From positions 18,354,001 to 18,418,000 of the forward strand of contig OZ076409.1 of assembly GCA_964187785.1 (NCBI GenBank): a stretch of 64,000 bases of DNA. Direction: 5' to 3'. Both the position numbers and the translations under genes were made by a program. Under the pieces are notes generated by a model. That model was not told the DNA's origin, searched no databases, and saw only the letters and a program-made list of their open reading frames with translations. The DNA is from Amphiscolops sp. MND2022 (taxonomy: Eukaryota). Shown in pieces: positions 2,657 through 61,047 of this stretch (positions are counted from its first letter, which is position 1; each line of letters begins with the position of its first letter).

Positions 2657-4558
2657 ATGGGAAATATCTATAGGGAATAAGATCCAAAATTTCAGGACGG
2701 GAATAAGATCTAAAATCACTAAATTTTAGATCTTATTATTTAGATCCTATTCCCCTCCCAAAATAGCTATGGCTCAAGTGATGAAGGCGAAAAGGGAGGA
2801 AAATATCCCGGTGCTTAGCGGGCGTCTTGTATAATTGCTTGAAACGTTCGACTTTTATAATTTACGGAGTAATTTTTCATCATAATTGGTTCATAGCACA
2901 GCACGATCACAAAGTTAGCGCTATATTTCGCTGAGATGATTTTCTGTACATGCAACGAGTTTTCAGCCGGAGAAATTTCGGTGAGTTACTTTTCGACCAG
3001 TTTTCCGCTTAGTTTTTTGACCAGTTGTTTTCGACTTTTAGTATATTCGAGAGAAAAGGTAAGGAAAAATGTACATGGGGAAGAGAGTTTCCAGAAGTTG
3101 GTTTCCAAATGAACATCGGAAGCTATACTTGGCGACATCATCCAAACTGCACTGAATGTAGAATTAGTTGAGCTTTTCATTATCGACGACTATTTTGACG
3201 TTAGCTTCATAAAATCAATTACTTTCGAAAGACGCAAGAAATACAAAGACAGTTTCCACAAAGCCTAGAAAACAAGGCTATAATGATGAAAACTGTCAGT
3301 TGTATAATTAACCGAAATTAACAAGTTTGTAAAAATGTTAAGTAATTTTGCAAGCACAGTGGATCCCGGATATAATCAACATCAACCACTAGTGGTGTTT
3401 CTTATAATGGAACTTTCTTATATGCGGCTTTTTCAGAAGGAATTATATTGGAAGTCGAAGCCAAGGTACGCATTGGCTGAAAGCGGGTATTAGCGGGATC
3501 CCATAACCGGGATCCAAAGTTTTCAATTTCGATTTGTATTTCAGATTTTGAAAGTCTCCTGTCTCAAACACCCCCAAACAAACAATCGTATTGAATCAAG
3601 CAAAGGTGATAACTTATTTTTGTTTTTCTATTGTTAGAGCTCATGTGGCGTCTTATGACTATGCTCTTACTGAGCGGGCTTGAGGTCCTCCCAGTAAGAA
3701 GTGATTACATCATATGGCATCTTACCAATGAGGTGCGTAATTTTGTATGTGACTAAAAAAAAGCCAAATCAGTAGAAGCCGGCATGAAAGTAGTAGTCAA
3801 ATTAGATTTTAAAAGTCAGTTCAAACGTAGTTACCACGAATTTGCAAGTTTGAAACAGGTCGACTGCCGAAGTTTGCTAACAGAATTTTAAGCTACCATG
3901 TATGCAAAAAATAGTTCAAAAACCTGTTTCAACAGACGGTGCTTCGTTTTTATGGCAAACTTCGTTCTAAAGGTGAAAATTGACACCGGCGATTTAATAA
4001 GGCGAAAATTACGACTGTACATTCCTTTTTCTCTGAAATTTTTTCTACAAGGAGTGATTTTTTTAAATTCAAAAGTTGTTGGCTAACAACAGCGTTTTAA
4101 ACGTTTAAAATGTTTTAAACTATCTTGAAGAACCTTGCGGGAAAACTTTTTTCATCTTTGTTATCAACCAGGTTCATTATCATTTGTTAAACTGCTATAT
4201 AACGCGGGGCTTTTGCAGTTTCGATTTTTTTCGCTAGGTTTTCTTTTGAAATCGAACAAAAAGTTTCAATCAACGCCAAAATTCACAGAACTGTGATAAG
4301 TGATATAGTTTTTTTTGTTTTCTTGTTAGATTTCAAAACAAAAATATCAAAATTTTCACCGGCAATTATATGTCTAATTTTTTGGTACCATGTTTCATGA
4401 TACCATCAAAACTTCTATAGAACTAAGAGAATCAGTTTCAAAGTTTTAAAAATGTTACACTTCAATAAAACTTCAGTAACACTCGAATCTCATTTAATAT
4501 TATAACTTCAATTTCTTTCTTCTCGGAATAATTGATCTAAATTGCATATAGTTCTTAA

Positions 4559-5148
4559 CCTTAACTTGGCCAATGTGCCAAATTTGGCACATTTTGTTTC
4601 TGCAAATTCTTAACGCACCAGCTGATTGTATGGTAAAGCAAAACCTTTAATAAGAGTTTCAGACAATATTGCATAGCATTCGGCGCCTTTTCACGGAAAA
4701 TTGACGTGATGTCTCCAAAACCCAGAAAATGACGCAAAAAAATCAAAAGAAAAATAAGTGCAGATTTTCCGTTTTCCCAGTTTTCGTTTGTGCCCCTTTT
4801 ATCCCACTGGTATCAACATTGGGTCAAAGCGTCCCCGGCATGTTTTGAAACATGTTGAAAAGCAAGCAGAGACACGACGCGTGCAAAGTTTTAGCGCAAA
4901 GTTCGGAGCCAGTGCGGCGAAGCCGCACGCCAGCGGAGAACTTCGCGCAAAAAACTTTGCGCGCAAGGGGCCCGCGCTAGCGGGCCCCAAGCCCAGCAGT
5001 TTAAAAATTGATTTGAAAGCCCCAATGCTCCTCTTTCGAACGCTGTATAAATAGTTTGTCGGACTTGTATAGTTCAGGAGATATTGCGGTTTAAAGTTGA
5101 AGCACCTGATTTTTGGATGCAACAAGATTTTTCCTGGCCAACTTAAGG
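4559..5148. mobile_element. piggyBac-like MITE with internal hairpin cluster
   Basis: TTAA on both sides (4555-4558, 5149-5152); TIR CCTTAACTTGGCCA vs reverse complement CCTTAAGTTGGCCA (13/14); no transposase. Confidence 0.85.
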
Positions 5149-5242
5149 TTAAAGGTAGATTAGAAATATGAGAGCGTTTTGGGACTCCAAGAACGTTGAT
5201 AGAAAAATGCGTCTTAGAAACCAAAGTGATTATTCAGAGACA

Positions 5243-6457
5243 TCACATCTTGGACTGCTTTCGAGACAAAAACTTCATCACTGCCGATATGCATTCTTCT
5301 GAGGTCCATCTTTCAACCAATCGATCACATTCGGCCTTGTTAACTTCATGCAGTTTCTCTTTATGCTGTTGACGCATCAACGCTTTTCCATACATGACAC
5401 TCTTAGGAGGCAGAGACGCCAATAACGCCAGACGCTCCTGACAGACCTTGTGAAAATTCTCATGGGGTATCACTTCTGTCACCAAGTTACGCTCCAAGGC
5501 TTCCTCTGCAGATATTTTCTTCTCGCACACCAACATTTCAACCGCTCTTTGGTGTCCCATTAGGAGAGGGAATGTATAGGATGAGCACCCTTCGGGCGAC
5601 TGGCCTAAAGAGGGAAACGGGGTATGAAAAGTGGCATTCGATGAAGCTAGCACCAAGTCAAACATGCCCAGAACCGTTACGCTGATTCCTACGGCTGGTC
5701 CGTTTATGAGGCCAACCAAGGGTTTTGAGAAATCTATATAGCTGCTCACATACTTCTCCAGAATGATTCCTCCTTGTTGAGCCCCCTTTTGCAAATCGCC
5801 GTTAAACTCGGCTGCCAGTTTTTGAAAACCACTCAAATCGTTTCCAGCACAATAGTACTGACCCGCGCCGGTCATGGCAGCCACAGTAACCTCATCGTTG
5901 GCATCAGCCTCAGCCAAAGCTTCGCCAATTTCTTGGTAGCATTCGATGCTCACTGCATTATACTTAGCAGGGTTATTCAGAGTAACGGTGAAAACTCCAT
6001 TGCTAATGTCTACCTTGATGGTCTGATACTTTCCTTCGACTGCTTTCTGAGGCGCTGCTTCTGCCTTAGAACCGCCTTGATCTGCGGCTAACAGCTTTTC
6101 TACAATGTCGATATACTGTTTCATAGCATCTGAGGAACTCACGTCTTTCAAACCACTCCAAGCATCCCATTTAGCTTTAGCTACGAAATTGAAAGCACCA
6201 GGTTTGGGAGTGTTGTTGACCCCAATAGTCGCTTGTTTGAACAGGGCGTACATCTTGAGCTTCACTTCGTTTCCAGGGTCCTTGGAGAGGGTATTGACTT
6301 GTTCAGACATCTGCTTGAACTTGGCTTCCAGAGATGCATCAGCCGAAAAAGGCGAAGTTTGATTCATGGCGAAGACCCGTGAAGCACCCGATATCAGAGG
6401 TCTGCTACTGAATCTGCGACAAAAGGGCTGCAAAAGGGAGGTCGCGATGAAATTCAT
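5243..6457 (-). CDS. ECI2: Enoyl-CoA delta isomerase 2 (ACBP domain + crotonase domain), intronless CDS, 404 aa
   Basis: ACBP motifs KLKMYALFKQAT...KAKWDAW; crotonase motifs YYCAGNDL, NGPAVGISVT, GQSPEGCSSYTFP; C-terminal SKM (PTS1-like); first in-frame ATG at 6457. Confidence 0.95.
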   Translation of the reverse strand: MNFIATSLLQPFCRRFSSRPLISGASRVFAMNQTSPFSADASLEAKFKQMSEQVNTLSKDPGNEVKLKMYALFKQATIGVNNTPKPGAFNFVAKAKWDAWSGLKDVSSSDAMKQYIDIVEKLLAADQGGSKAEAAPQKAVEGKYQTIKVDISNGVFTVTLNNPAKYNAVSIECYQEIGEALAEADANDEVTVAAMTGAGQYYCAGNDLSGFQKLAAEFNGDLQKGAQQGGIILEKYVSSYIDFSKPLVGLINGPAVGISVTVLGMFDLVLASSNATFHTPFPSLGQSPEGCSSYTFPLLMGHQRAVEMLVCEKKISAEEALERNLVTEVIPHENFHKVCQERLALLASLPPKSVMYGKALMRQQHKEKLHEVNKAECDRLVERWTSEECISAVMKFLSRKQSKM

Positions 6458-8522
6458 TTCATAACTAAAACGAAAGAGGTGAAGAGACCTGTAAATTGAA
6501 GTTGAACCAAAAACATTGTTTTTCAATGCGATTTTTTTGCGGCGATAATTCTTTCAAGGCGATATTCGTTTTACGCCTGGAAGGTCAGGAGTTGAAGACA
6601 GACAATATTTTATATACTTCGCGATTTGATTGAAAGAGCTTAGTCAAGTGGTCCCGAGCTACAGCCTCTCTGTGGTGCCATTCTTTGTGAAAAAAAATAT
6701 ATATTGATAGTTTGAACGCACTTTAATCAACACGATCGGAAGGTAGCTCAGACTTTTGTAGGAAGTCAAACGAAATATCCAAACAAAATGAAATGTCCAA
6801 GTTTAGCAGATAATTCAGGTGGTTATTGAGGTCACAACAGAGTATCTAAAATCATTATTGCCCAAAAAGCCAATAGCTTGTCAATCTAATTCATGACTAC
6901 TGCCACTCTTAATGCAAAAATTAGACTCCCGAGTTCTGGCGAAGGGAAGAAAATGCCATGTTCCAAAAACTATTTACTTCAATAAGGCAAAGCTTAACAG
7001 AGAAGCAATGATTTATAATAAAACGTAGGATTATATTATACTGAGTGAGAAAAATAACTTCAGGACAAAATAGCACCGTTTAGTTAAGCTTCCATTTTCT
7101 CACATCTTTTTTGAATGGAACTCGAGACGTGCACTTTTCACAAATCACGCCAGCCAAGTCTTGTAAAGATTACGTCACTGCAGTAAAAAGTGACGACACT
7201 TGGCAACTCACACTTGACAAAAAGGGAAGCACCAGAAACGTTTCCGACTGAATTTCCCGACTCAGATCCAACATTGAAAGGGTATTCGGGTACTTTGGTT
7301 GGTGTTTAAGAAAAGGTTCGTTCTTACGTTTTTTCATCACAGTTTTTTGGTAATTCGAAACTTTTATCACTCACTCATATTATAAAAACATTCACCAAGC
7401 TTCGTATGTATACAAGCTTTTGAATTCAACGAAAATCACAGCATTTTTTCAACTAAACATGATTCTTCATTCCAAATATACATATGCATCATTTCAGCTT
7501 ACAGGAAACATGAAAACTTCCTTTCTTTCTTAAATTCGAAGTGAAACCATACACCCTTCAAAGGTTTCTGGAGATACATAAATTAGAGGAAGGGGCGGGT
7601 GGGCTTCTGAGGTGTACAAGGACAGGACAAGGAGTATCATTAACCAATCACAGACTGTACAAAATTAGTGAACATCTATTGGTTTGCATTGGGTCGTTGC
7701 ATAGGTAGATAGCATCTTGTTTTCAATAATAATAACAACAAAACAACATTTTCATAGCCAGGAAGCCTAAAACAGTATCATTAAAAAATAGCAGCAGAGC
7801 AAGACAAACTCCACCACTGGGTAGCTCCTGTGATATTGGAAAAAGATCAGAAGAGCCCATCATACTGGGGCAACAAGAATTTCATCCCAGATGAAAAACT
7901 GCCGCAGTTACAATCATGTCAGAGTGGTAAAGCTGCATAGCGTCTTGTTGCATTACGTAATGACAGAGAGGACTTTCATCACATCCGTCCCCTATTTATG
8001 TTTGTTTGTTTGGTGTAGCAGTATTCAGTTGGTTATCATTATGAAAAGTTGAACATTGATGCGTTTCAACGTCATTAAAAAATCCCACTTCAAGGGAAAA
8101 TGTTTGCCAAGGAAAATTTCGTAGTAACATTCGAGATTATTTGTCAAGTTCATAATGGTTTGTACCAGCAAATTTTTCTAAACATTTCGTTGAGTTTAAC
8201 ATTATCTTTAGAGTAATTACCTTTAGAGTACCTGTCAGAAAATTGACACAGGCTTTTCTCATAATTTCGAAACGCATTCAAGGATTACAGTAAAAACAGT
8301 GTGATATTGCGGCAAAGCAAAAAGTCATTATTGCGCAAGGTAGTCATCAACGTACAAGTCTTGGTTCAAGTCACGAACGCACCCTAATTCCATTTTTGAT
8401 TGGTGCGCAGTGGGTGGGTATTTACAGTGAGGGCAAAGAGTTGGTCGAGGTATAAGGTACTGTCGCTGTTACTCACTCAACACAAGACAGCGACTCCAAA
8501 TTGCAACAGCTCCGCTCTTGGT

Positions 8523-14711: not shown

Positions 14712-16035
14712 GGCTTCAAGTCATATTGCTTAATGCCATATTGCTTAAAAATCGACCATGTACGAATTGCTTAAAATTTTTTAAGCAATATGGACATCAT
14801 TTTAAGCAATATGGACATCATTTTAAGCAATATGGACATCATTTTAAGCAATATGGACATCATTTTAAGCAATATGGACCTAGTACAGTACAATATGGAC
14901 CTTAGGTCTAATATGATCTAATAGGTCTTACGATCTAATATGTGTTCTGAGTATGATATGTGTCGTATGGAATTAGATTTAACGGTAGGTCTAACTTTCA
15001 GATCTAATTTTATCTAGAATACTTACGTCTAACGCCTTTATGATCTAATATGTGTTCTGAAAGCGAAAATATAATGTGGGGCATATGCGATGTATGCACG
15101 CTCGCCCTCACCGTCGCAAAGACCAGCTCCCACTACGATCGCTTCGCGATCTCCGTTCACGCTAGGTCTTTGCTCCTGTTCGACCTCGCTTAGCAAGATG
15201 GGAATATAAGCGGCCCCAAGGGGCCGCGGGCCACTAGAGGAAATAGGGACATATCCGAGGGGATGCAGGTCATTTCGCCTAATGCCATTTCGCCTAAAAA
15301 TTTAGTTGAGTCATTTCGCCTAAGAAAATTAGGCGAAATGACCAAACGGGAATAACGTCTAAATAATCATGTTTCGAAAAAGGCTTTCTGAAAGCGAAAA
15401 TATCAAAATGTGGGGCATATGCGGTGTATGCACACTCGCCCTCACCGTCGCAAAGACCAGCTTCCACTACGATCGCTTCGCGATCTCCGTTCCCGCTAGG
15501 TCTTTGCTCCTGTTCGACCTCTCTTAGCAAGATGGAACATAAGCGGCCCCAAGGGGCCGCGGGTCACTAGAAGGAATGGGACATACCCGAGGCACGTTTT
15601 CTATTTTATATCACTTTTTAGTTTTAGATCTTAAACGATTTATTTGTTTCCCAATTTCATGTGTTTTTCACGTTTCTGAAAAAAAATTAGGCGAAGTGAC
15701 CAAAGTAAAAGACGTTTCGCCTAAAAAAATTAGGCGAAGTGACCAAACACGTTAGGCGAAATGACTTTAGGCGAAATGGCATTAGGCGAAATGACCATTT
15801 CCCATCCGAGGCACGTGTTATAAGTGTCACTTAGATCCGACGCATTACTCGATTCATCACTCATTACTCAACGTGGAAACACATCCATATTGCTTAAAAA
15901 TTATTAAGCAATATGTCCACAAAATTAAGCAATATAGCATTATCCATATTGCTTAAAAATTATTAAGCAATATGTCCCCAAAATTAAGCAATATGGCATT
16001 AAGCAATATGGAATTAAGCAATATGTCTTGTACCC
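14712..16035. mobile_element. MULE-like MITE family c (CCATATTGCTTAA arms) with shared core; contains nested MITE d
   Basis: 9 bp TSD gatcgaagt (14703-14711, 16036-16044); TIR ggcttcaagtcatattgcttaa / gggtacaagacatattgcttaa; five copies of a 21 bp unit at 14779-14879; inverted copies at 60296 and 62007. Confidence 0.92.
15261..15803. mobile_element. MULE-like MITE family d (TTAGGCGAAATGAC arms) with shared core, inserted into the core of MITE c
   Basis: 8 bp TSD atccgagg (15253-15260, 15804-15811); about 30 bp TIR ggtcatttcgcctaatgccatttcgcctaaa; core at 15407-15597 (-). Confidence 0.92.
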
Positions 16036-17411: not shown

Positions 17412-20400
17412 GTCTCGGGGGACTAGCTTGGCCTTCCAAGCAGATAAAATATTTTTTTAGTAAAAAGTATGCTTCAGTGAATTCAGAGAATGAGGGGTAA
17501 ATAAATAGGAAGAAAGTAGCTCCTTAGGCCGACTAACTGTGGCCAAGATCCGGCAAAAAGCAGGAAAACACCGTCAAGAGAAAGCTCGAAATCTTTGGAA
17601 CATGTTATGAAACCTGTCATATTTTAATTGGTGGAGAGATAATTCAGGCAGGAATTCCCAAATAAAATCAATTCAAGATCAAATATATCATCATCAAGAA
17701 ATAACTGCGGATAAAAGTTCAATCATTTGGCATCATAATGCATTTTTGCTATTTTTGCTAGTTCCAGGAACTTTTTGACGAATTGAGAGCATTTGGGCTT
17801 CTGTGTGGAACTTTCGTTGTTAAAAATTTTTCTATTTGTGACATGCTCAAACTAGAGGAGGGAATAACGTCTAATGAATAACGTCTAAAGGTCCATCGGA
17901 AATAACGTCTAGAGGAATGACATCTAAACTGAAATATTAGGGAATAACTTCTAAACAGGGGAATAACCTTTAAAAAGAGGAATATTGTCTAAAATCAGGA
18001 AGCCTCTAAATTGGAAGAAAAGTCCAAAATATCAAAAAACCAACATAACACGTCTGAAAAATAGGAATAACGTTTAAAATTGGGAAAAACGCCTAAAATA
18101 TCCAAAAATCATTAAAATTCGTCTAAGAAACGGAAAAACGTCTAGAGTTGGGAAAATTCAAGTCAATCAAGAACTAAAGCTATAAAGTTGTTCAAAGTAT
18201 AAAACGTGTCTCGGATATGTCTCCATTTCCGCTGGTGCCCCGCAGCCCCTTGGGGCCGCCTATGTTCCCACCTTGCTAAGCGAGGTCGAAAAGGAGCAAA
18301 GACCTAGGGGTACGGAGATCGCGAAGCGATCGTAGTGGGAGCTGGTCTTTGCGACGGTGAGGGCGAGCGTGCATACACAGCATATGCCCCACATTATGAT
18401 ATTTTCGCTTTCAACAAGTCTGCTTTTGCAGATGTAGACAACTCCGCCCTTACGTCGGCCTTCGATGATTTCGAATTCTGCCATGTAGTCTAAAAATAGT
18501 CAGTTTTCAACGCGGATACTTTTCAAAATCAATTTTTTGAACATTTCCCTTTCTGGAATAACGTCTAAAAAACAGGGATAACGTCTAAAAAACAAGAAGA
18601 AAGTTTTAAAAAAACGGGACAAACGTCTAATTATTTAGTCGTTATTCCCGAAAAACGATTTATATTTAGACGTTATTCCCGTTTTGAACTCTGACGTTAT
18701 TCCTTAGACATTCTTCCCGGCCGCCTGCTCAAACACTCGCTCTCCTTGATTCAAATGAACAAACAAAACATAGCAAAGTGATTAGATTTTCAACTAGATT
18801 AAAGTATGTTTTTTAAATGACGGGTGAGACATCAGACAGGGGAAGTGTTTTGAGTTTGTTGACCGGACGAATGTATTCGCCAGTTGATGTCCTCACCTTT
18901 ACAACACGAACAAAATTGTCTGGCCCGCTATACGCATATGACACTCGGGCCAAGGGCCATTGTGAGGGAGCCACGTTGTCGTCCATGAGATATACAACAT
19001 CACCAACCTTGAGATTGCAGCTCTCTTTCCTCCGTTTACATCCTTCCTGGAGAGCCGATACGTACTCTTTTTTCCAACGGTTCCAGAAGTGACATTTAGG
19101 ATACGAGTCCACCGAGCAGTTGCTGAGCAATGTTTCAAATGAGATATCTGGGATGACTGCTCAGTTGGGTAACATTCCAATTTTGATCAGCCTATCAGAT
19201 GCCCAGAAGTCAAAATGACCTCATTTTTCGGGTCGTCTGAGACTAATCTTATGGGTCTTGAACTTAGCACGTTTTCCACTTGGCAGAAAAGGGTGGAGAG
19301 TTTTCCAAAACTGAGAACATTTTTGCCAATTATTCGTCTTAGATGGTTTTTTGCACTCTTAGTCCCAGCTTCCCACAAACCCGCAAAGTGGGGCGCTCGC
19401 GGAAGAATAAAGTCCCATTCAATCAGTAGTCCGGCTGGCACTGATTCTATAGAGTTTTCGATCGTGTCATTAGGTATTTTCTTGTGTTTAATAAGGAGCT
19501 CTGCAAGAGAACCTTGGAAATTCGAGACGTTATCTGAGTTAATAGAAGCAGGACAACGCCTCTTTGAAGGTTTAAAAAAACACGCCTGTGTTGGGAGATC
19601 AGAGACGATCTCCAGATGAACTGCCTTGCTGGCAAAGCACACAAATAGAGACGAGGTATGTTTTTGTGACGTCTTTACGATCACCGCTACAACAACTTGG
19701 GCCTCCAAAGTCCAAAATAACATGTTGGAATGCCTTGGAGGGAACTGTTTTTCTTTATTTAGGCCAATCGCCCATCAACTGTTCAGAACTTGAATTGAAT
19801 CTACAACAAATGATACACATCAAGATAATTTTCCGCAGTTGTTTGCCTCATGCTGGTATTCCAAATAAAGTACGGATTTCAGCTATCGTTTGGATAGTTC
19901 CACTATGCAGAGTTTGAAGATGGGCGTCAAGAATTATCAATCTTGGTAGTTCATTTTTTGCGGAACTATCTGAGGGTACATGGCTTCATCAGGCATTTCA
20001 GCATTGGCACATCGACTGCCTACATGCACTACCTCTTTTTGCAACAATGGATACAATTTAAGGATTCTGTTATTTGTTCGCACCGAATTACACCGTTTCT
20101 GAGACTCATTTTTCTTTTCTCAAGAATCCTTTTCTCTGCTCTTGATTTTTTTGTTTCTTCTTTTATTCCTTCTTGTTTGAATAGAACAAACGTTTCATGA
20201 GTTAACAGCCAATCAGGACCAACCCACCAGATTGACAAATTCTCAAGCTTGGATGGATCCACCAATCTGGACCTTGGCTCTGCTGGATTTTCATGTGTTT
20301 GCACATGATTCCTGATTAAATCTTCGTTCTCTTGAATTTTAGCACCTCGATTGGTTACAAAAGTTGCCCAAACGCTTGGCTCAGAAGCTAGCCGGTTTAT

Positions 20401-23400
20401 AACTATAGTGGAATCGATCAAAGCGTTTTGTGATTGGATTTTCAGACAAATTATGTTAAAGTTTTTGAGGACTGGATTAACCAGTTGACATCCCAGAAGA
20501 ACTGCGCAAAGTTCTAGCCTGGTTATTGATTGTGTTTTTTGGGGGTGCTATTTTGGCTTTTGCGGTGAGTGGAGTCGAACTCCGCCAACCTAGCTCTTCT
20601 TGAGCTACAATAAAGATTCAAGGAGCGTACCCTATCTCTGAAGCATCACAAAACAAAGGCAACAACACGGTATCTGTTTGCTCTATTCTCAACACAAAGC
20701 GGTGTAATTTGAATTGCCTTTCGATTTTGAATTCCAAGATGTAAAAGGGTAGCTTGTAATCCCAGCGGACATTGGTCTGCCAAATACTTTGCATTACATG
20801 CTTCAATTTCAGCGTGACCGGCGAGATCCAACCAACAGGGTCAGAAACTTTAGTGATATCACTAAGGACTTCCGTTTGGTCATTTGGGCATTGTCCAACT
20901 GTTGATCTGACTGCTGAATGTCGAAACTGAAGTTATAATGAAAAAGATTCCAGACAAGGCCTATTTTTTTAATGGTATGGTTTGTGTCAAGAAACTCAAA
21001 TGACTTCTTAGCTTCACGATACTGGGGCGGTAGTTAAAGCGTGATCAACGAATCATTGCAAGTCCACTTTCGCAAGTCGAATTTGTTCCGCTCCAACGCG
21101 CTGATCGAACCTTTTTGCCATTCTTTCGCCTGTTGAACAGACGAAGCTCCCGTCAGAATGTCGACGACATAGAAGTCACGCTTTATAGCTTCTTGAACGA
21201 CGTTTGTTACGTTTGGCTGCTTAGCGCACAGTATTAATGCTCGAATGGAATGATAGGATGCTGCGGCATTTTAGTACGGTACCCTAGTCATGCGAAGAGT
21301 TTGAACTTGATCGCCAGAGTATTCTAAGGAAGTCATATCTTGTCGATTTAGATCAAAATGTCAATACAATTTAGAACTGTCCGCGATCATAGCTATTTCA
21401 AAGAACCTGAAGCGCACGAGAATACTGAAGAGGTCATCTTTTAATTTCCGACCTATGCGTAGACAGTCATTCAGAGAACGCCCAGATGTTGTCTTTGCGC
21501 TGGCGTTAAAGACGACTCTCAATTTTGTGGTTGTGCTGTCTGGTTCATGGACACAATGATGAGGGAGATAAAAACAATTAAGATTGTCTGATTCATTTTC
21601 GGGAACCAGTTCTATGTGGCCAAGGACGACTATTTCTTGTATGAATGCAAGGTATTCCATTTTGAGTTCAGGATTGGCATTTAGCTTGCGCTCGAGACTG
21701 AAAAAACGCTTCAAGGCGCTTGCTCTGCTGTGGCCTAGTTTGACACCATTTGACAGAAACGGAAGTTGGACTAAAAACCTGCAATCTGGCTTCTGAATAT
21801 TTGTGTCATCAAAATGTTTTTCACAGCCTGCTTCTTCTGCAGTCAAATGTTTCTTGATTGGTACGTTCTCTAACTCCTAAAACTACGATAGGATGTCATC
21901 CGTGGACTCCGGAGAAACTACAGAAACATTGATACTAATGGTATAGTCAGGTGGAACGCTCACTTTTTGACGGGACCAGATACTGCGCAATTAAAAAGTG
22001 ATTCTCGAATTACAACTTCATTGTTTCGGATTCGACTTTCCAGAAAAATGTTTTCGAGGACGTCAGCGCCAAGAAGAATGTCGATTTTTCCCGTATTGAT
22101 GAAAGTTGGGTCTGCTAAAACAAGGGTTTTCACATATTTAAATTGCGAAATATCATAATGCTCCATTGAAAAATTCTTCGTTTTGTTAGGAATGATGTGC
22201 AGACTAGTGTCAATGAACTGATGCAGCCGAGTGGGTAGAAAGTCCAGAGTTTTTTGGGCCCCTGTGGCACCTAGTGGACTGATTGGCGTTTGCGTCCGGA
22301 TTGTTGTCAGCATCAATGCTTTCGCGGTCGACTCTGTAATGAAACTAGCCTGTGACCCAGAATCAAGAAGTGCTTGCATTTGAATGTCTTTTCCTGATTG
22401 ATTTTGAATTTTGACCAATGCTGTTGAGAGAAGAACATTGTTGGTGTTTGTGGCTTTTACGGCAACGCCTTAAGCAGGTTGACTCCTTTGCGCCTCGTTG
22501 CATTTGATTTCACGTCACTTGTGGACACTCTGCCCAAGTTAGACTGAGCATTCTTTTACGACACGAATTTTTGACTTGATGCTGTAGAAGGCTTTTCCCG
22601 ATGTAAAAATGAATGATGCTTTAACTTACTTTCTCTGCAAGTAAATTTCGAAGTACATGCACCAACAAGTTGACCTGGATGAAGACAGTTGAAACAAATT
22701 TATTTTTGTTGTGCAAACTTCTGTCGATCAATAGCAGACAATTTGAGAAACAATGGGCAAGATGACAATATATAACATTCCTGACGAGTATCACCACAAA
22801 CACTCACGACAGTGTATGATTGAATGTGCTTTTGATTCGACTGGGTTTTTGCGGAAGTCGGATTTTTGGCGTGTGTCCACTAATTTTGCCAAGTCTTTCC
22901 ATTTCAGGAAATGAGTTCGCTGATTAGCTACCTGCCATTGCTTGCGAGACTCACCATCAAACTTTTCGATGATCCAAAAGATCAATAGAGAATCCAACGA
23001 TTCAATGGGTTCGCCTAATTCGGCTAAGGCTCTCAAATGTTGGTTGGTTGCTTATGAAAGTTTGCGCAAGGCAACGGCAGATTTACTTCGCATGGGGGGT
23101 TGCGTCCAAATGGCTTTCAGATGGGGCTGGACTAAGCAACGCTTGTTTTCGTAGCGTTCAATAAGTAATTTCATAGCTATTCCATAATTAGCACCAGGTA
23201 TTGTGACAGATGCTATAAGCTTGGCATCATCGCCAACCAAGCACACTAAACATTTCATCTTTTCAGAGTCGCTCAATTGGTTGTTGACATCAACTGATGC
23301 TTTGAATTGATCAATGAATGACATTCATTCAGTATACAACCCAGTGAAACAGGGTAATTGAAGTTGAGGCAGTCTCATTTTGCTGGTGGAACCTGAGTTT

Positions 23401-31200: not shown

Positions 31201-32254
31201 AAACATGAAAAACATCAACATAAACCAAATGGTTGGAAATGAAATACGGCTGGTAATTTTTTCAAAGCCCGGTGGTTTAAACTTTTTTTAAACGAAATTA
31301 ACCAATAGCCCAAATCTTCACCTCCTATGAAGTATTTGATGTAAAAACATGCCCACCGGGAACTCCGGTGCTTTGACCTGTAACCTAAACTTAAACGATT
31401 ATTCACTTCGATGTAAAAAGCAAAGAAGACGGATAATAAGTCAAAGAGAGTGACTTGATTGTAAAGGTACCGGACAGCTGACTTCTAGAAGATTAGGAAA
31501 ACTTTTTAACAAGAAATCTTCCTCTTTCCCACCGTTCTGAAGAAAAGGCAGTGATCAGTCTTACCACTAATATAAAATTACAAGTACCTACACAAGATTT
31601 TACCGTATAAAAGTTGAACTCAAACAAAGCACCAAGTGAGACACTTCATACGCATTCATAGGACAAGGAGAGCCGTCTTACTCAGGAGCATCAAACAAAA
31701 TTAACCAGCTAAAGACTTTGATTCCTTTTTTCATATAAAGCAGCAACCTATCGAGTTCGTTTTTATTATTACTTTAACGTTCTGAGATTTGTTGAATTTG
31801 TTGAAAATTTTGTTGAATTTGATGAACTTTTGATACATTTTGAAAATGACTGGAATGCTTTGAAAAATTTTTTTTTGGAATAAATGGAAATTCAGAAGAT
31901 ATGTTGAGGTTGAAATTGATGGGTAGAGAAATTGTAATTTTTTGGTTAGCATTTGTCTAACTTCTCGCACTTCTTAGATACCCCTCTTCAGTCGATATTT
32001 TGGTGAGTCCCACCGTTACCGGTAACATAAAAATACTTCATACACAAAAACCCGTCGCCCTGTGGTTACGTTATTTACGTTTACTGTCCAATCGCGACAG
32101 TAAGCTGTGACCAAGTTGTCAAACCCGTCAACTTCAATTTAGGACGTTTTCACAAATGTTGTTTTTTTTGCCAGCCGATAGAATTTCTCCAATTTTTGAC
32201 ATTTGTTTCATTTTTTGATTTTGAAAAATAACATACCACTAAGGCAACTCAATA

Positions 32255-32349
32255 AAATTTCTGGACACTAAAGCAAAGATTCAGAGCTGACAGGATTTGA
32301 ACCTATTCTTCCAAGTCGCGGCCTGACGTGCTGATCATTACACTACAAC
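32255..32349 (-). mobile_element. tRNA-derived SINE-like head (related copies about 32535-32582 and 56937-57020)
   Basis: Minus strand tagtgtaatg (A-box-like) and ggttcaaatcc (B-box); downstream flank ctttgctttagtgtc is shared with the 56.9 kb copy. Confidence 0.6.
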
Positions 32350-33037
32350 TTCGATATATGAGCAACCTGTCCTGACTTATAAACCAACTTGGTGGTTGCT
32401 ACATTATTCCCTTCTCAAAAGAGTTCCTATCTCGCTGTCACCAAGCTCAAGGACAACATTCGGTACGAGCAACTCATGTCAGCTCTACCACTATTGCAAC
32501 TCGATAAACTATCTAGACACCAATCAAATTTTTAGAGCTAGCAAGATATGAACCTATTCTTCCATATAGCGGTCTGACGTCATGTTCAATTTACTCCTTC
32601 TATGTAGGTGTACAGTGAAATTCGAAAGTTTGTTGGATATCACAGCCTGCTTTGTTTGCCGCACAGATCACTTTTCAGTCAGAAGCTTCCTCAATGTAGT
32701 TTACTTGTGCACACGAAAAAGCGTCTTGAGGGTTACAAGACACGTGGCTTGACAACACTTGGCTGATGTTTTATTTCGAGTCACTTTTTTTTAAATTTTA
32801 TGTTTCCACTGTCAAATACCATGGATCTTCGTCACCAATCTATGTGCGTTATCATGCTGCAGAGGGGGGGGGGGAGACACACACCCGTGGTCTGCAAAGA
32901 AAGGAAAAACTTTCCCAGTAGACCAGCAGCAACAGATCAACAACGAAGAATGTTCTTATACCAGCCACTATCCCTGTCGGCCGGTAGAAACAAGGTTTTG
33001 AAGAAAGCTGCGATGATAAACAGGTTTTTCAAAATGA

Positions 33038-40300: not shown

Positions 40301-43300
40301 CGTACCTGGGACTAGGATGACCTGCAGTCTATTTGCGTTCGCGTGGAAGCGTCTGGGCAGCGTGTGCCGCGCTCTTTCACGTGTCATGTGCCGCTCTCCA
40401 TCCAAGGTGGTAGCCCGAGTCTGCTGCTCGTGCTCAACGAGAATCATGTTGATGATCGGCGCTTTGTCGTTTGGCAAGAGTGTAATAAGGACGCTTTCCT
40501 GTAAGCTTACCAGCAAGAGCATCAGGCTGTCTTCTGTGTGCTAGAAGTGACAACTATGGTGGATTACCTGATGCTGCGTTTGCCTGGTGCCCTTCAAGAG
40601 CCTTGGTTGGGTTACGTCTGTGAGCTCCGTCATTCTGTTGTCGTTGGACGAGTACAATTTTCTGAGTTGAGCATTGTCGTCGCTGATCTGCTGTCAGTAT
40701 GGGAGTGTGTGCGGACATTTGTGCGTTCCATTGGCCCCGAGCATGTTCAAAGTAGCTCAAACAGGGTAAGTTTTTTCTTTTTGGGCGGGGCGGGCGGTTT
40801 CAGTTCCGGTGTTGGTCTGTGGCATTTTGTGTTCTTGTAATTGGTAGGATATTGCGTCCCTGTAACATGTTGAGTATTCGTGTTGTGTTTGCAGATGCTT
40901 GGAAGTGACTGGATTGTTTATAATGAGGGAACTAATGAGCTGCGCCTGGTCCTCCTGTTGCATGTGTTTGATCTACGTGAGTATCTTTGGTTGGTTTTTG
41001 TGGCTATGGTTGGGAGTAGGCATTTTAGGCGTTGCGTATTTTTAGATCCGAATTCATTCAAAAAGCAATTGTCGGGGCAAAGCAAATTTGGCTTCCACTA
41101 TGATTTCGAGCTGTGTCAGTTTTTTATTGCCCCTTGTCACGTAGTAGAAAGGTGTCCTCTTTGCTGTCTCTGGACGCTTGTGAGAGTTACATGGATGCGT
41201 CAGAGCTTGCTCCTTACGAGATGACTTTTTGCAGCTGCACGATTTCGATGAGGAATTACGTCCGTCGTCGTGATACCAGCGAGGTGCAGGATTTCTTAGT
41301 ACAGGTTCACTGACCATCTTGTAAACATTATCTTGTTGCATCATACTACTGAATCTGAGTTTGCACAGAGTGTTTACTGTTTCTGCACTGAGTAATTGCT
41401 GGAGGGGGATGATAAGCAAGTTTTCCTCTTGTTCAAGAAGTTTGTTCGGGTTCTTGAAAAAGGCGGATCCTTGTGTTTTGTGGATTCGAAAGTTGCTGCT
41501 GATGAGTTCGTGGCCTATGTGGTTGATGTGCATGCTTGACATTCAAGTAGTGGCCGTGGCACCGAAAGCATTACTGAGATTTCTCCTTATTTGCGTAGTG
41601 ATTATGTCTTCATGTCGCGAAGAAACTTGTGTCGCGTTTTCAAACCTTGTTGCTCAGTTGTTCAAAAGCCTTTAATGGTTAATCTTGCAGTTGACATAAG
41701 TTTGGATGTTTGTATGGTCCCAAGAATCGCCGCTGCGACGTCCTGTATACGGGGGGGGGTGCAGAGTTGCGACTCTTCTGCTGACTACAAGCATAGCTCG
41801 TATGTGTACAAGCATATATGTAGTTGGTGGGCATTCTATGTTTGTGGATCGTTACTGTACCTCGTTTGACATTCACTTGGACAATCAGAATAAAGGATCT
41901 CATCAACGGCTTCGTAGCGCCAGTAAACAAGGTCAAAAATTGCAGCTTGCATGTGATGCGGAATCTTCTACTACGACTTTTTCGGAAAGTGCTTCATAAT
42001 CAGTTGCTGCTGGGTCAATTGCGGTTGCAGTTGCATCTAGTCTGTAAGTCAGGGTAAAGCGAAACAACATGCGACCCTTTCATCATTTTAGGGCGAAAAA
42101 GAGATGTGCTCGAGGAAGAGAAAGCTGCGAATAAAACACTGCAAAGATCTGTAAAAGGTCGTGCGTCTTATTGGGTCTCTTATACTTTGGGTCGAAGAAG
42201 TAGTTGTAACTCTTTTTGTAACCAATTGATGAACTCGTATGATTTTGGTAGTATTTTTTGTTATATATCACTGTCCGCTGGCAGTTGCTTCTAGTTTTTA
42301 GTTTCCGAAATTGATGAATCGAATAAAAAAGGAAGTCGATGAACTTAAAAAGGAAAAGAGAGAAAAAAGAATCCTGTGTCGTAGTAGGCTCGAATTAAAA
42401 TTTGTCACATTTGTTCAGCCCGGACTCCTGATAATGTATTTTTCATCTAAGTGAGTCGAAGTCACAGCGACAAGTCTTCTGATGTCAGGATTAGCGTCAG
42501 ATGTAGGTTTGGTAGGTCTCAGATTATAATTAGCTATTTTCCGAGGATTATATCCGACGATCTTATGCTGTGATTTTGGGGGAATATGAGGGCTTTCAAT
42601 GGGTGGGGCGTCGTATATAAGGGTTATCCCCTAGGTCAGTAGTGAGATTTGAAATGTCCGGCGACGGTAGCTCGACGTTTTCTATTGTCTGACTTTGGTC
42701 AGCGAGTTTTTCTTGTTCTTCTGTTTCTTTAACAGTATCGTCTGTTATCGCGACATCAACACTTTGACTGCAAAAATTCATTTCCCAAGACCTATTAAAC
42801 GTTTCGTTGTGTGACGTTTTGCCATCTGGATCAAGTAGATATTCGTTTGTTCTTACTATGACGTCAGGTATGCGTTGTTGTGACACGTAGGGCCTATTTC
42901 GTATTCTGTGCAACGTTTGCATATACCTTGTCCCGTTTTTCCTGATTGTGTAGTTATTGTTTGGTAGTACTTTATTCACGATGTACGGTCCTGTCCAGAT
43001 ACAATTTCTAAACGCAAACTTGGTTGCTTGGTTGTCAGCCTTCGGGTTGAGTGTGTAGCAAAATTCGCTCAATTTGAGTAGGGCTGCTGACTCCTTACGG
43101 TCCTAATATTTCTTGTACTTAGGATAGGACAGCATGATGTTGTCTTTTGCTGTCGCACGCACTTCGTCAATTTGTTTCCATAGCAGGTCTGTTATGTCTG
43201 AATTAGGCGTAGTTTCCCATTTCTGTTTGATGCCTAAGTTTGGATCGAGAGCATTGTACGGTATACTTCCGTAGAAAACTGTGGAAGGTTCGCAGCCCAA

Positions 43301-44340
43301 TGTTTCGTGATAGGTTGTATTATAGTTCATTACTGCTATTTGGACATATTTGTGCCACATGGAGCGTCGTTCTCCTGTCGATATCTTCAGTGATGTTTTG
43401 ATAGACGCATGCGTTGTTTCCAGTATCCCAATCGTTTGTGCCTGTTTTGCGGAGGCGTGGCTGATTTTTATTTCCGGTATCCGTGTTACCTCTGCTCGGA
43501 TTTTTGATCTGAATTGCGATGCTCTGTCCGATAGGATGAGTGTAGGTACGTACGCATGTCATGTCATGACGTGGACGGTGCAGCGTCCAATTGTCGTAAC
43601 AGTAATGTTTTGGGTTGGATAGGCGAATAGGTACCGTGAAAGAACATCTATGATTCTGACGATATTTTGCTAGCTTGCAGAGCTCGGTAGCTTTGTAGGA
43701 TGTGAATTTCTAAATTGTCTTCTGGTCCCAGTACATGTTTTGTTTTATTGAGCATTTTCGGTCTAAATAGACGGTTGTCAATTCTTTTGTTTTTGATACA
43801 GTCTTCACAGTTCGAAACCTATTGTTTGATTCGTTTTGCTAGTTCTGGACAGAAGATTTTTGATCTGCATTCTTGGATCTTTTTTGTTATTCCAGGGTGT
43901 TTCCCCATTTTTCCGTGTAATGCTCTGAGTAATTCGTCTATCAGGTGTTCGGGGATTAATATTTGGTGATGTGTGACTTGTTCACATTCCCCGTAGTATT
44001 TGCGCATGAATATCCCATCTTTGACGATTAGTCTGTCTTCTTGCACTAAGAGGCGTTTGGCTTTCGAATAGATCTGTGGTAGGTGTTTATCATATTCTTC
44101 GCCCAAAATGGGTTTGTGGACTACTATCGGCTTGTCTTTTGGTTCGACGTGGAGTTCCATTGGCGGGACTTCTTTTCGAAGGAGTGTTTGGTATTCGTAA
44201 GTGTTGAAAGTGCTGGACCGGTATTCGTGGAGTGTCCAATATCCCCCTTGGATAGGTACATCCTCCAACGGTGCAAACGAGCACTACCTTGGTTAGCGGA
44301 TACGTTTACTGGTTGTTTTTCTCTTGATGCACGCGATTCG
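37400..44340 (-). mobile_element. Gypsy-like LTR retrotransposon remnants: integrase (42596-44268), 3' accessory region and an older pol fragment
   Basis: H2C2 motif LHGKMGKHPGITK...C..C; integrase core WHKYVQIAVMNYNTTYHETLGCEPS; GPY/F motif WTGPYIVNKVLPNNNY; multiple frameshifts. Confidence 0.8.
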
Positions 44341-45749: not shown

Positions 45750-46740
45750 CCGGGCGACAACTTTCTCGTTTCACGCGTCAAGTTGCACAGTTCACGCGTT
45801 CGTAGTCTAGTGGTAAGATGTTTGCTTTTCAACCCAGAGGTTTCGTTTTCGAACCCGTGCATATGCGCTAATTTTTTACAAGTTATCTGAAGCAGGTTCT
45901 CACTTTTTTCGGTACCATGAGACTCCCCCCTCCTTTTTTCGGCTTTGGGAGACTTTTTCGAAAATTTTTAAATGCCGCCAATTGTCTTTCCTTCTATTTT
46001 TTTGATATTTTGCAAGAGAACGAATGTTAGAAAATCCCAAAGGGCCGCTTTTTTCAAATTTTTCGACACTATGAGACTCGAAATTTCTCTTACTTTTCGA
46101 AAAATTTTCGAAAGACTCCAAACGGTCTCCCTTCAGTTTTTTGAACTTTTGCAACAAAATGGATGTTAAAATATCTCCAAGGGCCCCCTTTTACAGTTTT
46201 CGGCATTGTGAGATTTTTCAAAAAGAATTTTTGTCTCAAAATTAGGTTTTCTCAAGCCCAGAACGCTCTATTCGATTTTCGTTTTTTTAAGGACCGGTGT
46301 TTGTTACATTCGTTTTCATCGAAGCCCCGCTCAATTTTTACAAGACACAAAACGTTTTGCGAGCGTAAAGCACTCCTCAACGTTTTTGTCACTATGCGAA
46401 TTACCGGAGACCTTCATCAAAAAAAATTCGGAAAATTTCGAAAAAAAATTCTTTATTTTCTGTTTTTTTTTTAAAGGTTTTCCGTTGAGAAAGATGTTTT
46501 TTTTTGCTGTTTCCAGTTAGGGAAGAATGGTTTTCGAGACTTATGCGTATCCCTTCGGGTATTTTTTCGGGGCTGTAAAATTGATGAAATTTTAACATTA
46601 TTGTCATTTTACTCTTTGTTCTCCGTATGATACTGCTTATTTGGTTTTCTTTTGAAAAGTTCACAACTTTTTTCGCAAGTAATTGCGAAGCACGGCTTCG
46701 CCTCTGTGTAATAGAAGTATTAACAAATGTCTCTATCGTC
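45750..46740 (+). mobile_element. Non-autonomous repeat with a tRNA-Glu-like segment (45796-45868), related to the HINE family
   Basis: tagtctagtggtaagat...ttttcaaccc...ttcgaaccc; shared motifs aagggcccc and cggcattgtgagatttttc; hairpin gcgaagc-acg-gcttcgc at 46685-46701. Confidence 0.55.
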
Positions 46741-49720: not shown

Positions 49721-49769
49721 TCATCCTTTCAATTCGTATCACAATTGGTATTACATACATATCAGTTAT

Positions 49770-58860: not shown

Positions 58861-58868
58861 CCCTATAT

Positions 58869-59898: not shown

Positions 59899-60247
59899 GG
59901 GTGGGCGGAAGTAGGTCGAAGGAACGGGATCGAAAATCAGAGTTAGTCCTCAGGTCGACATACCAAATTTTTTGAATAGGATCGAAACAACTCGGATCGA
60001 AATTTTTTAACGTAGTCAGATATGTTCACATACCCCTAGTGCCCTGAATGCAGGAGCGAAGCGAAGCGGAGCGACGTGCCATATGACCATGCCTCAATGT
60101 AGCTACTTGGCGAAAGGAGCGAAGCGACCGAGCCATACAACAAATACGATAAAAATCGACCGCATTCCATTCAATCCCTGCAATTCGATCAAAAGGTTCG
60201 ACCTCTGTCCTTTCGACCAGAAAAATTCAACCTATTTACAGCCACCC
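59899..60247. mobile_element. MULE-like MITE (GGTCGA/GATCGA arms) with a GCGAAGC-rich 90 bp mini-core; duplicate at 61609-61958
   Basis: 9 bp TSD catacaaaa; TIR gggtgggcggaagtaggtcgaa / gggtggctgtaaataggttgaa. Confidence 0.88.
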
Positions 60248-60295: not shown

Positions 60296-61047
60296 GGGTA
60301 CAAGACATATTGCCTACTTCCATATTGCTTAATGCCATATTGCTTAATTTAGTGGACATATTGCTTAATAGTTTTTAAGAAATTTGGATAATGCCATATT
60401 GCTTAATTTTGTGGACATATTGCCTAATAATTTTTAAGCAATATGGATGTGTTTTCACATTGAGTAATGAGTGATGAATCGAGTAATGCGTCGGATCTAA
60501 GTGACACTTATAACACGTGCCTCGGGTATGTCCCCATTTCCTCTAGTGGCCCGCGGCCCCTTGGGGCCGCTTATATTCCCATCTTGCTAAGCGAGGTCGA
60601 ACAGGAGCAAAGACCTAGCGGGAACGGAGATCGCGAAGCGATCGTAGTGGGAGCTGGTCTTTGCGACGGTGAGGGCGAGCGTGCATACATCGCATATGCC
60701 CCACATTATATTTTCGCTTTCAGAACACATATTAGATCATAAAGGCGTTAGACCTAAGTATTTTAGATAAAATTAGATCTGAAAGTTAGACCTACCGTTG
60801 AATCTAATTCCATACGACACATATCATACTCAGAACACATCTTAGATCATAAGTCCTATTAGATCATATTAGACCTAAGGTCCATATTGTACTGTACTAG
60901 GTCCATATTGCTTAAAATGATGTCCATATTGCTTAAAATGATGTCCATATTGCTTAAAATGATGTCCATATTGCTTTAAAAATTTTAAACAATTCGTACA
61001 TGGTCGATTTTTAAGCAATATGGCATTAAGCAATATGACTTGAAGCC
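60296..61047. mobile_element. MITE family c, 752 bp; duplicate at 62007-62758
   Basis: 9 bp TSD tttcggcat; same TIRs as 14712-16035 in inverted orientation; core at 60515-60707. Confidence 0.92.

What the first reader, a model, noticed from the sequence alone, without database searches (positions are those of the whole stretch)
4878..4996. An unrelated piggyBac MITE has an analogous GCGAAGC hairpin module
Seen: the inverted repeat gcgtgcaaagttttagcgcaaagttc / gaacttcgcgcaaaaaactttgcgcgc encloses gtgcg-GCGAAGC-cgcac and is followed by ggggcccgc-gcta-gcgggcccc. This is the same layout as the MULE core (stem around GCGAAGC plus a GC hairpin) with no sequence similarity, in a TTAA-flanked element. 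Inference: non-autonomous DNA transposons of different superfamilies may converge on one ssDNA-structure signal.
Basis: partly seen in the sequence, partly recalled or inferred. Interest (0 to 1): 0.7.

Follow-up and report, generated by a model that had tools for sequence, protein, structure and literature searches.

The report
G·A-locked DNA hairpins inside piggyBac MITE
A small gene-less jumping element in an animal genome carries a pair of hairpins whose loops are all of a kind known to be extra-stable in single-stranded DNA, and unrelated jumping elements nearby use the same design, which hints at an unexplained single-strand step in how such elements multiply.

Summary
The sequence is as quoted. 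It lies in a 590-bp non-coding element (4559-5148) with TTAA on both sides and 14-bp CCTT TIRs: piggyBac-type ends, not Kolobok. It is the only copy I could reach.

The shared signal is not "GCGAAGC plus a GC hairpin". The GC hairpin lies 3' of the stem here but 5' in the MULE core. What is shared is loop chemistry: the second hairpin is a GCGNNAGC mini-hairpin, and 4 of 4 further 3-4-nt loop strands run G…A on one strand, both here (p 7.5e-5) and in the core (p 2.3e-4). A third repeat module follows the same design. There is no detectable homology.

Best reading: a strand-preferring ssDNA hairpin stabilised by sheared G·A pairs, probably aiding copying during gap repair or replication. That function is inferred, not shown. 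Main rival: a captured Helitron/HUH-type terminus.

No compensatory change supports the core's stem, and enrichment across TE libraries is untested. This scan has noted the same G·A design on other DNA (Cryptons, Helentrons, bacterial MITEs; unchecked notes).

The parts
4555..4558 (.). left TTAA target-site copy
4559..4572 (+). left TIR CCTTAACTTGGCCA (14 bp, piggyBac-type CC[C/T]T start)
   Evidence: motif from PMC2872659 and PMC5381638
4572..4593 (.). perfect 22-bp subterminal palindrome abutting the left TIR; possible transposase-binding subterminal motif (inference)
4879..4904 (+). 5' arm of the long imperfect stem
4905..4911 (+). GGA loop strand, 2-bp GC helix strand, CA loop strand (the one loop strand of 2 nt; it does not start with G)
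4912..4928 (+). 7-bp inner stem capped by the GCGAAGC mini-hairpin (GAA at 4919-4921)
   Evidence: motif PMC13037366
4929..4937 (+). GCCA loop strand, 2-bp GC helix strand, GGA loop strand (gives a symmetric GGA/GGA internal loop)
4938..4964 (+). 3' arm of the long imperfect stem
4967..4988 (+). 9-bp all-GC hairpin capped by GCGCTAGC (4974-4981), a GCGNNAGC mini-hairpin; the only one of 9 GCGNNAGC sites in the window with a stem over 3 bp
   Evidence: motif in the abstract of PMC13037366
4989..5000 (+). 11-nt tail then T; spacing as at a Helitron 3' end but without CTRR
5135..5148 (-). right TIR (13 of 14 complementary to the left)
5149..5152 (.). right TTAA target-site copy
5243..6457 (-). 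neighbouring host gene, ECI2-like (ACBP + enoyl-CoA isomerase, one open frame); its stop lies about 90 bp from the right TTAA, and the G..A strand of the module is antisense to it
60515..60710 (+). comparison: core A (the 'MULE core'), about 195 bp, with GAA cap, GGA/GTA and GGGA/GGGA loops and up to three outer GA/GA tandems; 12 full or partial copies inspected
60010..60140 (+). comparison: module B, with runs of GC helices separated by GNA/GNA and GA/GA loops around GAA caps, inside a 9-bp-TSD element (59899-60247)

Best explanation
4559-5148 is a non-autonomous piggyBac-type element (ends shown; mobility inferred). Its GC-rich centre is a two-hairpin structure shaped for single-stranded DNA. 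Both caps are mini-hairpins and the internal loops run G..A, so sheared G·A pairs can lock the + strand, while the - strand has TTC, TAGC and TCC loops and lacks them (sequence shown; folding inferred from published chemistry). The MULE-hosted cores A and B reach the same design from different sequence. Most likely role (inferred): the transposase does not need it. It acts when the element is briefly single-stranded, during gap repair from the sister chromatid after excision or on a lagging-strand template. There the locked hairpins would resist single-strand-binding protein and give a priming or re-annealing site, so that full-length copies are restored more often and the family gains copies. 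Because the loops mismatch on the other strand, the duplex would be a poorer cruciform than a perfect palindrome and less exposed to deletion.
For: TIR/TTAA anatomy, with 0 pairs in 20 controls. Second cap fits GCGNNAGC on the same strand as the first. G..A in 4 of 4 loop strands of 3-4 nt besides the chosen cap, in the MITE (p 7.5e-5) and in core A (p 2.3e-4), against 0 of 3 on the MITE's other strand; 0 of 3000 refolded loop permutations reach 5 such strands in either module. Window scan: 12 of 15 cGN(N)Ag-capped hairpins above threshold contain G·A internal loops, against 0 of 11 in the reversed/complemented control (the 12 are 1 MITE, 8 core A and 3 module B copies, so three independent designs). 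Only GNA of 64 triloops forms the DNA mini-hairpin, the RNA form of GCGAAAGC melts at 39 vs 76.5 C, such hairpins lie at G4 and ssiA priming sites, and a tandem pair binds SSB poorly (PMC13037366). Among 7 core copies the stem differs from consensus less often (9 of 280 cells) than the rest of the core (60 of 875). Core A sits in elements with unrelated arms and 9-bp TSDs, like the shared interior of coral piggyBac CMITEs, whose authors suggest a role in transposition (PMC2872659).
Against: One copy only, so no covariation and no empty site for this element. In 9 core A copies no pair of the GAA stem shows a two-sided change; 1 of 55 predicted pairs in the whole core does. Nearest-neighbour energies of the two strands are equal (-46.2 vs -46.7), and the Watson-Crick stems can form on either strand, so the bias rests on loop chemistry the model does not capture. 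The 2-nt CA strand does not start with G. GCTA itself is not in the review's Tm table. G and A loop ends in core copies (4 of 98 changed) are no better kept than loop middles (2 of 49). Other repeats in the window, including a TIR element at about 58860-59196, lack the module. piggyBac and MULE transposition have no known single-stranded internal intermediate (recalled). No functional data.
Confidence: 0.42

Rival explanations
1. The ssDNA design is real but belongs to a passenger: a captured terminus or mini-element of a rolling-circle (Helitron/Helentron, HUH-nuclease) system that landed in, or was captured by, the TTAA element and the MULE elements. The MITE gains nothing from it.
For: HUH elements read ssDNA hairpins, and canonical Helitrons end in a 16-20-nt palindrome about 11 nt before CTRR|T (PMC4067079). 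Here a 22-nt hairpin is followed by 11 nt and then T. In core A the 18-nt GC hairpin is followed on the opposite strand by CTAG ending at +10 or +11 in 7 of the 8 copies with a perfect hairpin. Cores A and B share a similar left end of about 40 nt and a sharp boundary and sit inside unrelated arms.
Against: No CTRR after the MITE hairpin. In core A the CTAG is followed by A, not T, and the core continues past it. The hairpin-to-GAA orientation differs between the two modules. No Rep/helicase remnant among 113 open frames of 85 aa or more. All GAA-capped core copies inspected lie among TIR-type arms rather than free (by eye).
Confidence: 0.27
2. The module is an RNA structure (a transcribed MITE hairpin, small-RNA precursor, or 3'-flank element of ECI2).
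For: Tandem G·A pairs are also stable in RNA (recalled). The element lies about 90 bp behind the ECI2 stop.
Against: GAA triloop and GCTA loop are not GNRA; RNA counterparts of mini-hairpins are far less stable. The G..A strand is antisense to ECI2. The only Rfam match at E<=1 in the window is a tRNA at 32282-32352.
Confidence: 0.1
3. Remote common ancestry: one ancient internal core shared by piggyBac- and MULE-type elements, diverged past detection, rather than convergence.
For: Both outer stems contain GCAAAG, a CGGAG block precedes the cap in both, and a collinear alignment can be drawn. Both have a 2-bp helix between two internal loops. Whole element vs core p 0.05.
Against: Module alignment no better than shuffles (p 0.46) or structure-keeping randomisations (p 0.52-0.56). 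nhmmer and blastn of the element found no core copy. Hairpin order differs.
Confidence: 0.09
4. A neutral by-product: palindromes grow by template switching, and stable mini-hairpin caps and G·A loops accumulate because they seed or survive that process. The module has no role in mobility.
For: Internal palindromes are common in MITEs (PMC12676858), and the Angel model ties MITE origin to fold-back replication (PMC5172404). No compensatory changes seen in core A.
Against: Template switching makes arms complementary; it does not explain identical non-complementary loop strands (GGA/GGA, GGGA/GGGA) all on one strand in unrelated elements.
Confidence: 0.1
5. Chance resemblance of two GC-rich palindromes.
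For: The G..A rule was applied after I had seen the loops, and only three independent modules are compared.
Against: 1 of 20,000 shuffles for the double mini-hairpin; 0 of 3000 refold controls; 0 of 11 in the reversed-sequence control.
Confidence: 0.02

Closest known systems
CMITEs of Acropora corals (piggyBac-type MITEs with an interior shared across families; PMC2872659, three of four parts of the main text read)
   Same: TTAA target, 13-14-bp CC[C/T]T TIRs, no coding capacity, an interior proposed to matter for transposition
   Different: CMITEs are about 100 bp and share interior sequence; the 60-bp consensus printed there has no GCGAAGC and the parts read discuss no hairpin. Here the likeness is of structure, not sequence, and crosses to MULE-type elements.
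Mini-hairpin DNA d(GCGNAGC)/d(GCGNNAGC) at phage G4/St-1/alpha3 priming sites, RSF1010 ssiA and N4 promoters (PMC13037366; abstract, sections 2.3 and 4, passages read)
   Same: Both caps match the motifs exactly and sit on one strand
   Different: Described roles are in phage and plasmid ssDNA; the review has 0 occurrences of 'transpos'. Here the caps top long stems with G..A internal loops inside a eukaryotic DDE-type element.
Helitron 3' end and Helentron/DINE-1 (HINE) 3' stem-loop (PMC4067079, passages read)
   Same: GC-rich hairpin about 11 nt before a T; ssDNA-type signal
   Different: No CTRR; enclosed by TIRs and a TTAA duplication, which Helitrons do not make
Angel fold-back model of MITE amplification (as summarised in PMC5172404, passages read; original not seen)
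   Same: Single-strand stem-loop inside a TTAA/T2-type MITE invoked to explain copy gain
   Different: Angel is palindromic along its whole length with an A-rich loop; here the structure is internal, strand-biased and G·A-locked
Kolobok / T2-MITEs of Xenopus (PMC6004289, passages read)
   Same: TTAA target
   Different: Kolobok ends begin RR (AGGRR); this element begins CC
REP/RAYT palindromes (PMC2817692, passages and Table 1 read)
   Same: Some REPs carry GCGAAGC-type caps on GC-rich imperfect stems, with potential to fold as ssDNA
   Different: Bacterial, GTAG-headed, mobilised by a HUH tyrosine transposase; no GTAG head or TIR relation here

Membership tests
piggyBac/TTAA MITE | TTAA on both sides | tested here: met
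   4555-4558 and 5149-5152
piggyBac/TTAA MITE | TIR of 12-19 bp | tested here: met
   14 bp, 13 of 14 complementary; 0 such pairs in 20 controls; range
piggyBac/TTAA MITE | Terminal motif CC[C/T]T, or C[CAT][CAT][TGA][TAG][TGA] | tested here: met
   CCTTAA at both ends
piggyBac/TTAA MITE | No coding capacity | tested here: met
   The two frames of 85 aa or more that overlap it (4758-5051 +, 4802-5233 -) have 0 Pfam families
piggyBac/TTAA MITE | High copy number, uniform length | not testable with these tools
   1 copy in 64 kb; no genome held; 38 of 38 metagenome TIR matches had no partner TIR within the fetched flank
piggyBac/TTAA MITE | Empty TTAA site or precise excision; cognate transposase with matching TIR | not testable with these tools
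   No second haplotype DNA reachable; no DDE transposase family among 113 frames scanned
Kolobok / T2-MITE | RR (AGGRR) terminal sequence | tested here: not met
   Ends are CC...GG
Helitron 3' terminus (second hairpin) | 16-20-nt palindrome about 11 nt from the end | tested here: inconclusive
   22-nt hairpin, 11 nt to a T
Helitron 3' terminus (second hairpin) | CTRR end | tested here: not met
   No CTRR within 16 nt of the hairpin
Helitron 3' terminus (second hairpin) | 5' TC and insertion between A and T, no TSD | not testable with these tools
   Needs further copies
Mini-hairpin DNA | GCGNAGC / GCGNNAGC sequence | tested here: met
   4917-4923 and 4974-4981, both on +
Mini-hairpin DNA | Sheared G·A pair, high Tm, nuclease resistance | not testable with these tools
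   Published for GCGAAGC; GCTA loop not in the Tm table
CMITE-like shared interior | Interior sequence shared between families with different TIRs | tested here: not met
   This element vs core A: p 0.46 and 0.52-0.56. It is met among the MULE-type hosts of core A.
MULE-type hosts of core A | 9-bp TSD with G...C ends and inverted arms | tested here: met
   13 candidate end pairs (some overlapping) vs 0, 0, 1, 0, 2 in five controls; e.g. 14712-16035, 15261-15802, 58371-58859, 60296-61047. The 9-bp rule for MULEs is recalled.
Known RNA family | Rfam covariance-model match | tested here: not met
   None in the element at E<=1

The most novel reading that the evidence does not exclude
Non-autonomous cut-and-paste elements of unrelated superfamilies (piggyBac, MULE) are independently selected to carry a strand-specific, sheared-G·A ssDNA module that works like a phage or plasmid single-strand initiation signal. 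It recruits a host primase or polymerase to a displaced strand, so MITEs gain copies by a partly replicative route that the transposase does not supply. That would explain why MITEs outnumber their autonomous partners and why different TIR families keep a shared core.
Probability: 0.15. Interest if true: 0.88.

Novelty: new variant of a known kind. Interest (0 to 1): 0.55.

Why it matters
How MITEs reach high copy number through cut-and-paste enzymes is a long-standing open question (PMC5172404), and the role of conserved MITE interiors was left open for coral CMITEs. A defined loop code (G..A strands on one DNA strand) turns 'the interior matters' into a cheap test. It can be counted in consensus libraries against reversed-sequence controls, and switched off by G..A to A..G swaps or a strand flip that leave composition and Watson-Crick stems unchanged. 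Standard folding programs give both strands the same energy, so such modules are easy to miss. If the module is only a captured Helitron end, it remains a useful marker of core swapping between superfamilies, but of modest interest.

Tried and rejected
Whole genome: none held. Sequencing runs for 4300-6500: none was listed, so no reads were laid; this is no evidence either way.

Copies of the element: none in the window by blastn or nhmmer. The metagenome scan with the TIR gave 38 single matches, none with a partner TIR or interior similarity. Viral scans with the inner hairpin gave 21 loci, mostly one coding context; with the second hairpin, 4 loci without the rest of the module. A gapped pattern for the GGA/GGA loop gave 0 viral loci and 1 bacterial locus that looks like chance coding sequence. 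Plasmids: no match. Earlier scan notes: no look-alike of the element, one irrelevant hit for the core, none in this genome.

Host identity: exact protein look-up failed; named ECI2 hits are about 48-54% identical, from molluscs, fish, cnidarians and others, so the host is an animal not further identified.

Watson-Crick extension of 3 or more pairs was 6 of 109 vs 2 of 84 (p 0.47). Nearby same-strand mini-hairpins were biased in both sets (28 vs 9 of 109; 7 vs 1 of 84). Only the further GA/GA step differed (14 of 109 vs 0 of 84).

One search used a structure string one column out of register and is discarded; searches are used instead.

Rejected: Kolobok (ends CC), known ncRNA, protein-coding origin, 'same layout', detectable homology to the core, and CpG depletion as the source of the GC contrast (window CpG o/e 0.94).

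Literature searches that found no paper on this design in eukaryotic TIR elements: 30 of 236 listed, none relevant by title; 0 papers each. The library is open-access only, figures are not held, and Repbase/Dfam notes were not searchable. The CMITE supplement (a protein alignment by its caption) was listed but not opened.

Full report
OBSERVATION. The region folds as ssDNA at -46.2 kcal/mol, z -6.8, with 0 of 200 shuffles as stable. GCGAAGC occurs 20 times in the window against 4.3 expected, but 16 of the 20 are copies of two other repeats (8 core A, 8 module B), so that count is not independent evidence.

THE ELEMENT. The module lies 361 bp into a 590-bp stretch, 4559-5148, bounded by TTAA on both sides and by 14-bp TIRs with one mismatch. 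No such pair arose in any of 20 Markov controls; the other 13 TTAA-bounded pairs listed in the window are subrepeats of a different family. The ends begin CCTTAA, which fits the piggyBac motif given in PMC2872659 and PMC5381638 (passages) and not the RR ends of Kolobok/T2 elements (PMC6004289, passages). The two long frames overlapping it have no Pfam match, and none of the 113 frames of 85 aa or more in the window matches a DNA transposase or Rep/helicase. A perfect 22-bp palindrome abuts the left TIR. The neighbour is an ECI2-like gene on the - strand whose named relatives are animal proteins about 48-54% identical. No second copy was found in the window, no genome is held, and all 38 metagenome matches to the TIR lacked a partner TIR. 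Mobility and copy number are therefore inferred from the ends alone.

THE COMPARISON ELEMENT. The 'MULE core' is a repeat of about 195 bp with 12 full or partial copies inspected. It sits among unrelated arm repeats. A scan for GG...CC ends with 9-bp flanking duplications gave 13 candidate end pairs (some overlapping) against 0-2 in each of five controls, among them 14712-16035, 15261-15802, 58371-58859 and 60296-61047. The MULE label is thus reasonable; the 9-bp rule is recalled. A further module (B) sits in another such element, 59899-60247. The MITE module shows no homology to core A (p 0.46) or module B (p 0.49), nor under randomisations that keep the structure and the GCGAAGC (p 0.52-0.56). 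The whole element against the core was borderline (p 0.05). The layout is not the same: core A's GC hairpin is 5' of its GAA stem with a CTTG/CAAG loop, while the MITE's is 2 nt 3' of it.

WHAT IS SHARED. (1) The second hairpin is capped by GCGCTAGC, a GCGNNAGC mini-hairpin, the second motif named in the abstract of PMC13037366. It is on the same strand as the first and is the only one of 9 such sites in the window with a stem over 3 bp. Two such hairpins on one strand arose in 1 of 20,000 shuffles. (2) The internal loops of the long stem are GGA/GGA and CA/GCCA. The other strand scores 0 of 3. (3) Core A does the same, with GGGA/GGGA and GGA/GTA, 4 of 4 (p 2.3e-4). Refolding after permuting loop letters, which allows for bias in the energy model, reached five such strands in 0 of 3000 trials for each module. 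A scanner that allows G·A loops found 15 capped hairpins above threshold, 12 with G·A internal loops (1 MITE, 8 core A, 3 module B). The reversed and complemented sequence, which keeps the stems but flips G..A order, gave 11 hairpins and 0 with such loops. Core A extends with up to three GA/GA tandems. The G..A rule was applied after I had seen the loops and after an earlier scan note mentioned tandem GA mismatches, so the p-values are somewhat generous, and only three independent designs are involved. That symmetric GGA/GGA and GA/GA loops form sheared pairs in DNA is recalled; my search for it returned only the review.

DNA OR RNA. In the review (sections 2.3 and 4 read) only GNA of 64 triloops forms the mini-hairpin, and r(GCGAAAGC) melts at 39 C against 76.5 C in DNA. 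Such hairpins lie at priming sites of G4-like phages and RSF1010 ssiA, and a tandem pair binds SSB poorly. GCTA is not a GNRA loop, the G..A strand is antisense to ECI2, and Rfam finds nothing here. DNA is favoured; RNA is not excluded.

AGAINST. Computed energies of the two strands are equal and the Watson-Crick stems can form on either. Nine core A copies show no two-sided change in the GAA stem. In 7 of those 9 (two tandem duplicates dropped) the stem differs from consensus in 9 of 280 cells, loop ends in 4 of 98, loop middles in 2 of 49 and the rest of the core in 60 of 875: a weak signal from related copies. Other repeat families of the window, and a TIR element at about 58860-59196, lack the module, so it is not a general property of non-autonomous elements here.

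HOW IT MOST LIKELY WORKS. Shown: the ends, the sequence of the module, the loop bias, the absence of homology. Inferred: the + strand folds preferentially when single-stranded; the transposase, which acts at the ends of duplex DNA, does not need it; it acts during gap repair after excision or on a lagging-strand template, where SSB-resistant hairpins could favour priming or re-annealing and so full-length restoration and net copy gain. I put this at 0.42. The main rival (0.27) is a captured rolling-circle terminus. The MITE's second hairpin is followed by 11 nt and a T but no CTRR. Core A's GC hairpin is followed on the opposite strand by CTAG at +10 or +11 in 7 of 8 copies with a perfect hairpin, but then by A rather than T. 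Cores A and B share a similar left end. RNA structure (0.10), neutral palindrome dynamics (0.10), remote homology (0.09) and chance (0.02) follow.

KNOWN WORK AND NOVELTY. Coral CMITEs are piggyBac-type MITEs whose interior is better conserved than their TIRs, with a role in transposition suggested but unexplained (PMC2872659; parts 1-3 of 4 read). The Angel model links fold-back replication to MITE gain (as summarised in PMC5172404). A 2026 survey of inverted repeats notes their enrichment in MITEs and has 0 occurrences of GAA or GNA as terms (PMC13155455, passages). Searches found no paper on sheared-G·A or mini-hairpin modules inside eukaryotic TIR elements; the library is open-access only and lacks figures. 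Unchecked notes of this scan report the same design in coral Cryptons, Helentron ends, bacterial and giant-virus MITEs; I did not test them and do not count them as support. What this locus adds is the design inside DDE cut-and-paste elements of two superfamilies in one genome.

VERDICT. Observation confirmed, interpretation partly supported, with the shared feature redefined. A piggyBac-type MITE by its ends, with an undescribed strand-biased G·A hairpin interior: a new variant of a known kind. Interest 0.55, held down by the single copy, the lack of covariation and the lack of functional data.

Noticed in passing
window 14712-16035, 58371-58859, 59461-63115: MULE-type elements are nested inside each other's cores: 9-bp duplications fall in the left end of core A (15261-15802), just right of core A (59899-60247) and in module B (59461). 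This may reflect target preference for the cores.
   Followed up: partly
window 60010-60050 vs 60515-60555: Cores A and B share a similar left end of about 40 nt (AACGT...GATATGT...CTAGTG), suggesting a family of related cores swapped among different arms.
   Followed up: partly
window 60540-60570, - strand (and 6 other copies): Core A's 18-nt GC hairpin is followed by CTAG ending 10-11 nt later, the geometry of a Helitron 3' end, but then by A rather than T.
   Followed up: partly
window 60520-60540 and 60690-60705: Core A is bracketed by a near-direct repeat of about 13 nt (CGGATATG[T]CCCCA-like).
   Followed up: no
window 46655-46701: Three back-to-back 7-bp hairpins (loops CAC, GTAA, ACG) containing two GCGAAGC in inverted orientation, in otherwise AT-rich DNA.
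   Followed up: no
window 59701-61429 and 61411-63115; 48047-49229 and 49758-50926; 53709-54678: Tandem duplications (about 1.7 kb at 96%, 1.2 kb at 86%, 0.49 kb at 93%).
   Followed up: no
window 18816-23324 (-) and 42599-44283 (-): Broken Pao/BEL-type retrotransposon (Peptidase_A17, DUF1759, DUF5641, aspartyl protease) and a second broken LTR-type element with an integrase zinc-binding match.
   Followed up: no
window 32282-32352 (-); 32229-32588 and 56906-57022: A tRNA match within a short repeat of three copies; possibly a tRNA-derived SINE.
   Followed up: no
window 5243-6457 (-); proteins P0002-P0004: The ECI2-like gene is one open frame; unnamed relatives at 100% (partial), 80% and 60% identity lie on long contigs in the protein collection, so related assemblies exist whose DNA I could not fetch.
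   Followed up: partly
L091, L101, L123, L135, L167 and others: Viral contigs carry GAA-capped hairpins with two stacked GA/GA steps, closely resembling module B, often beside further mini-hairpins.
   Followed up: partly
L052/L057: One viral contig holds three copies of the 17-nt inner hairpin, two in tandem and one inverted.
   Followed up: no
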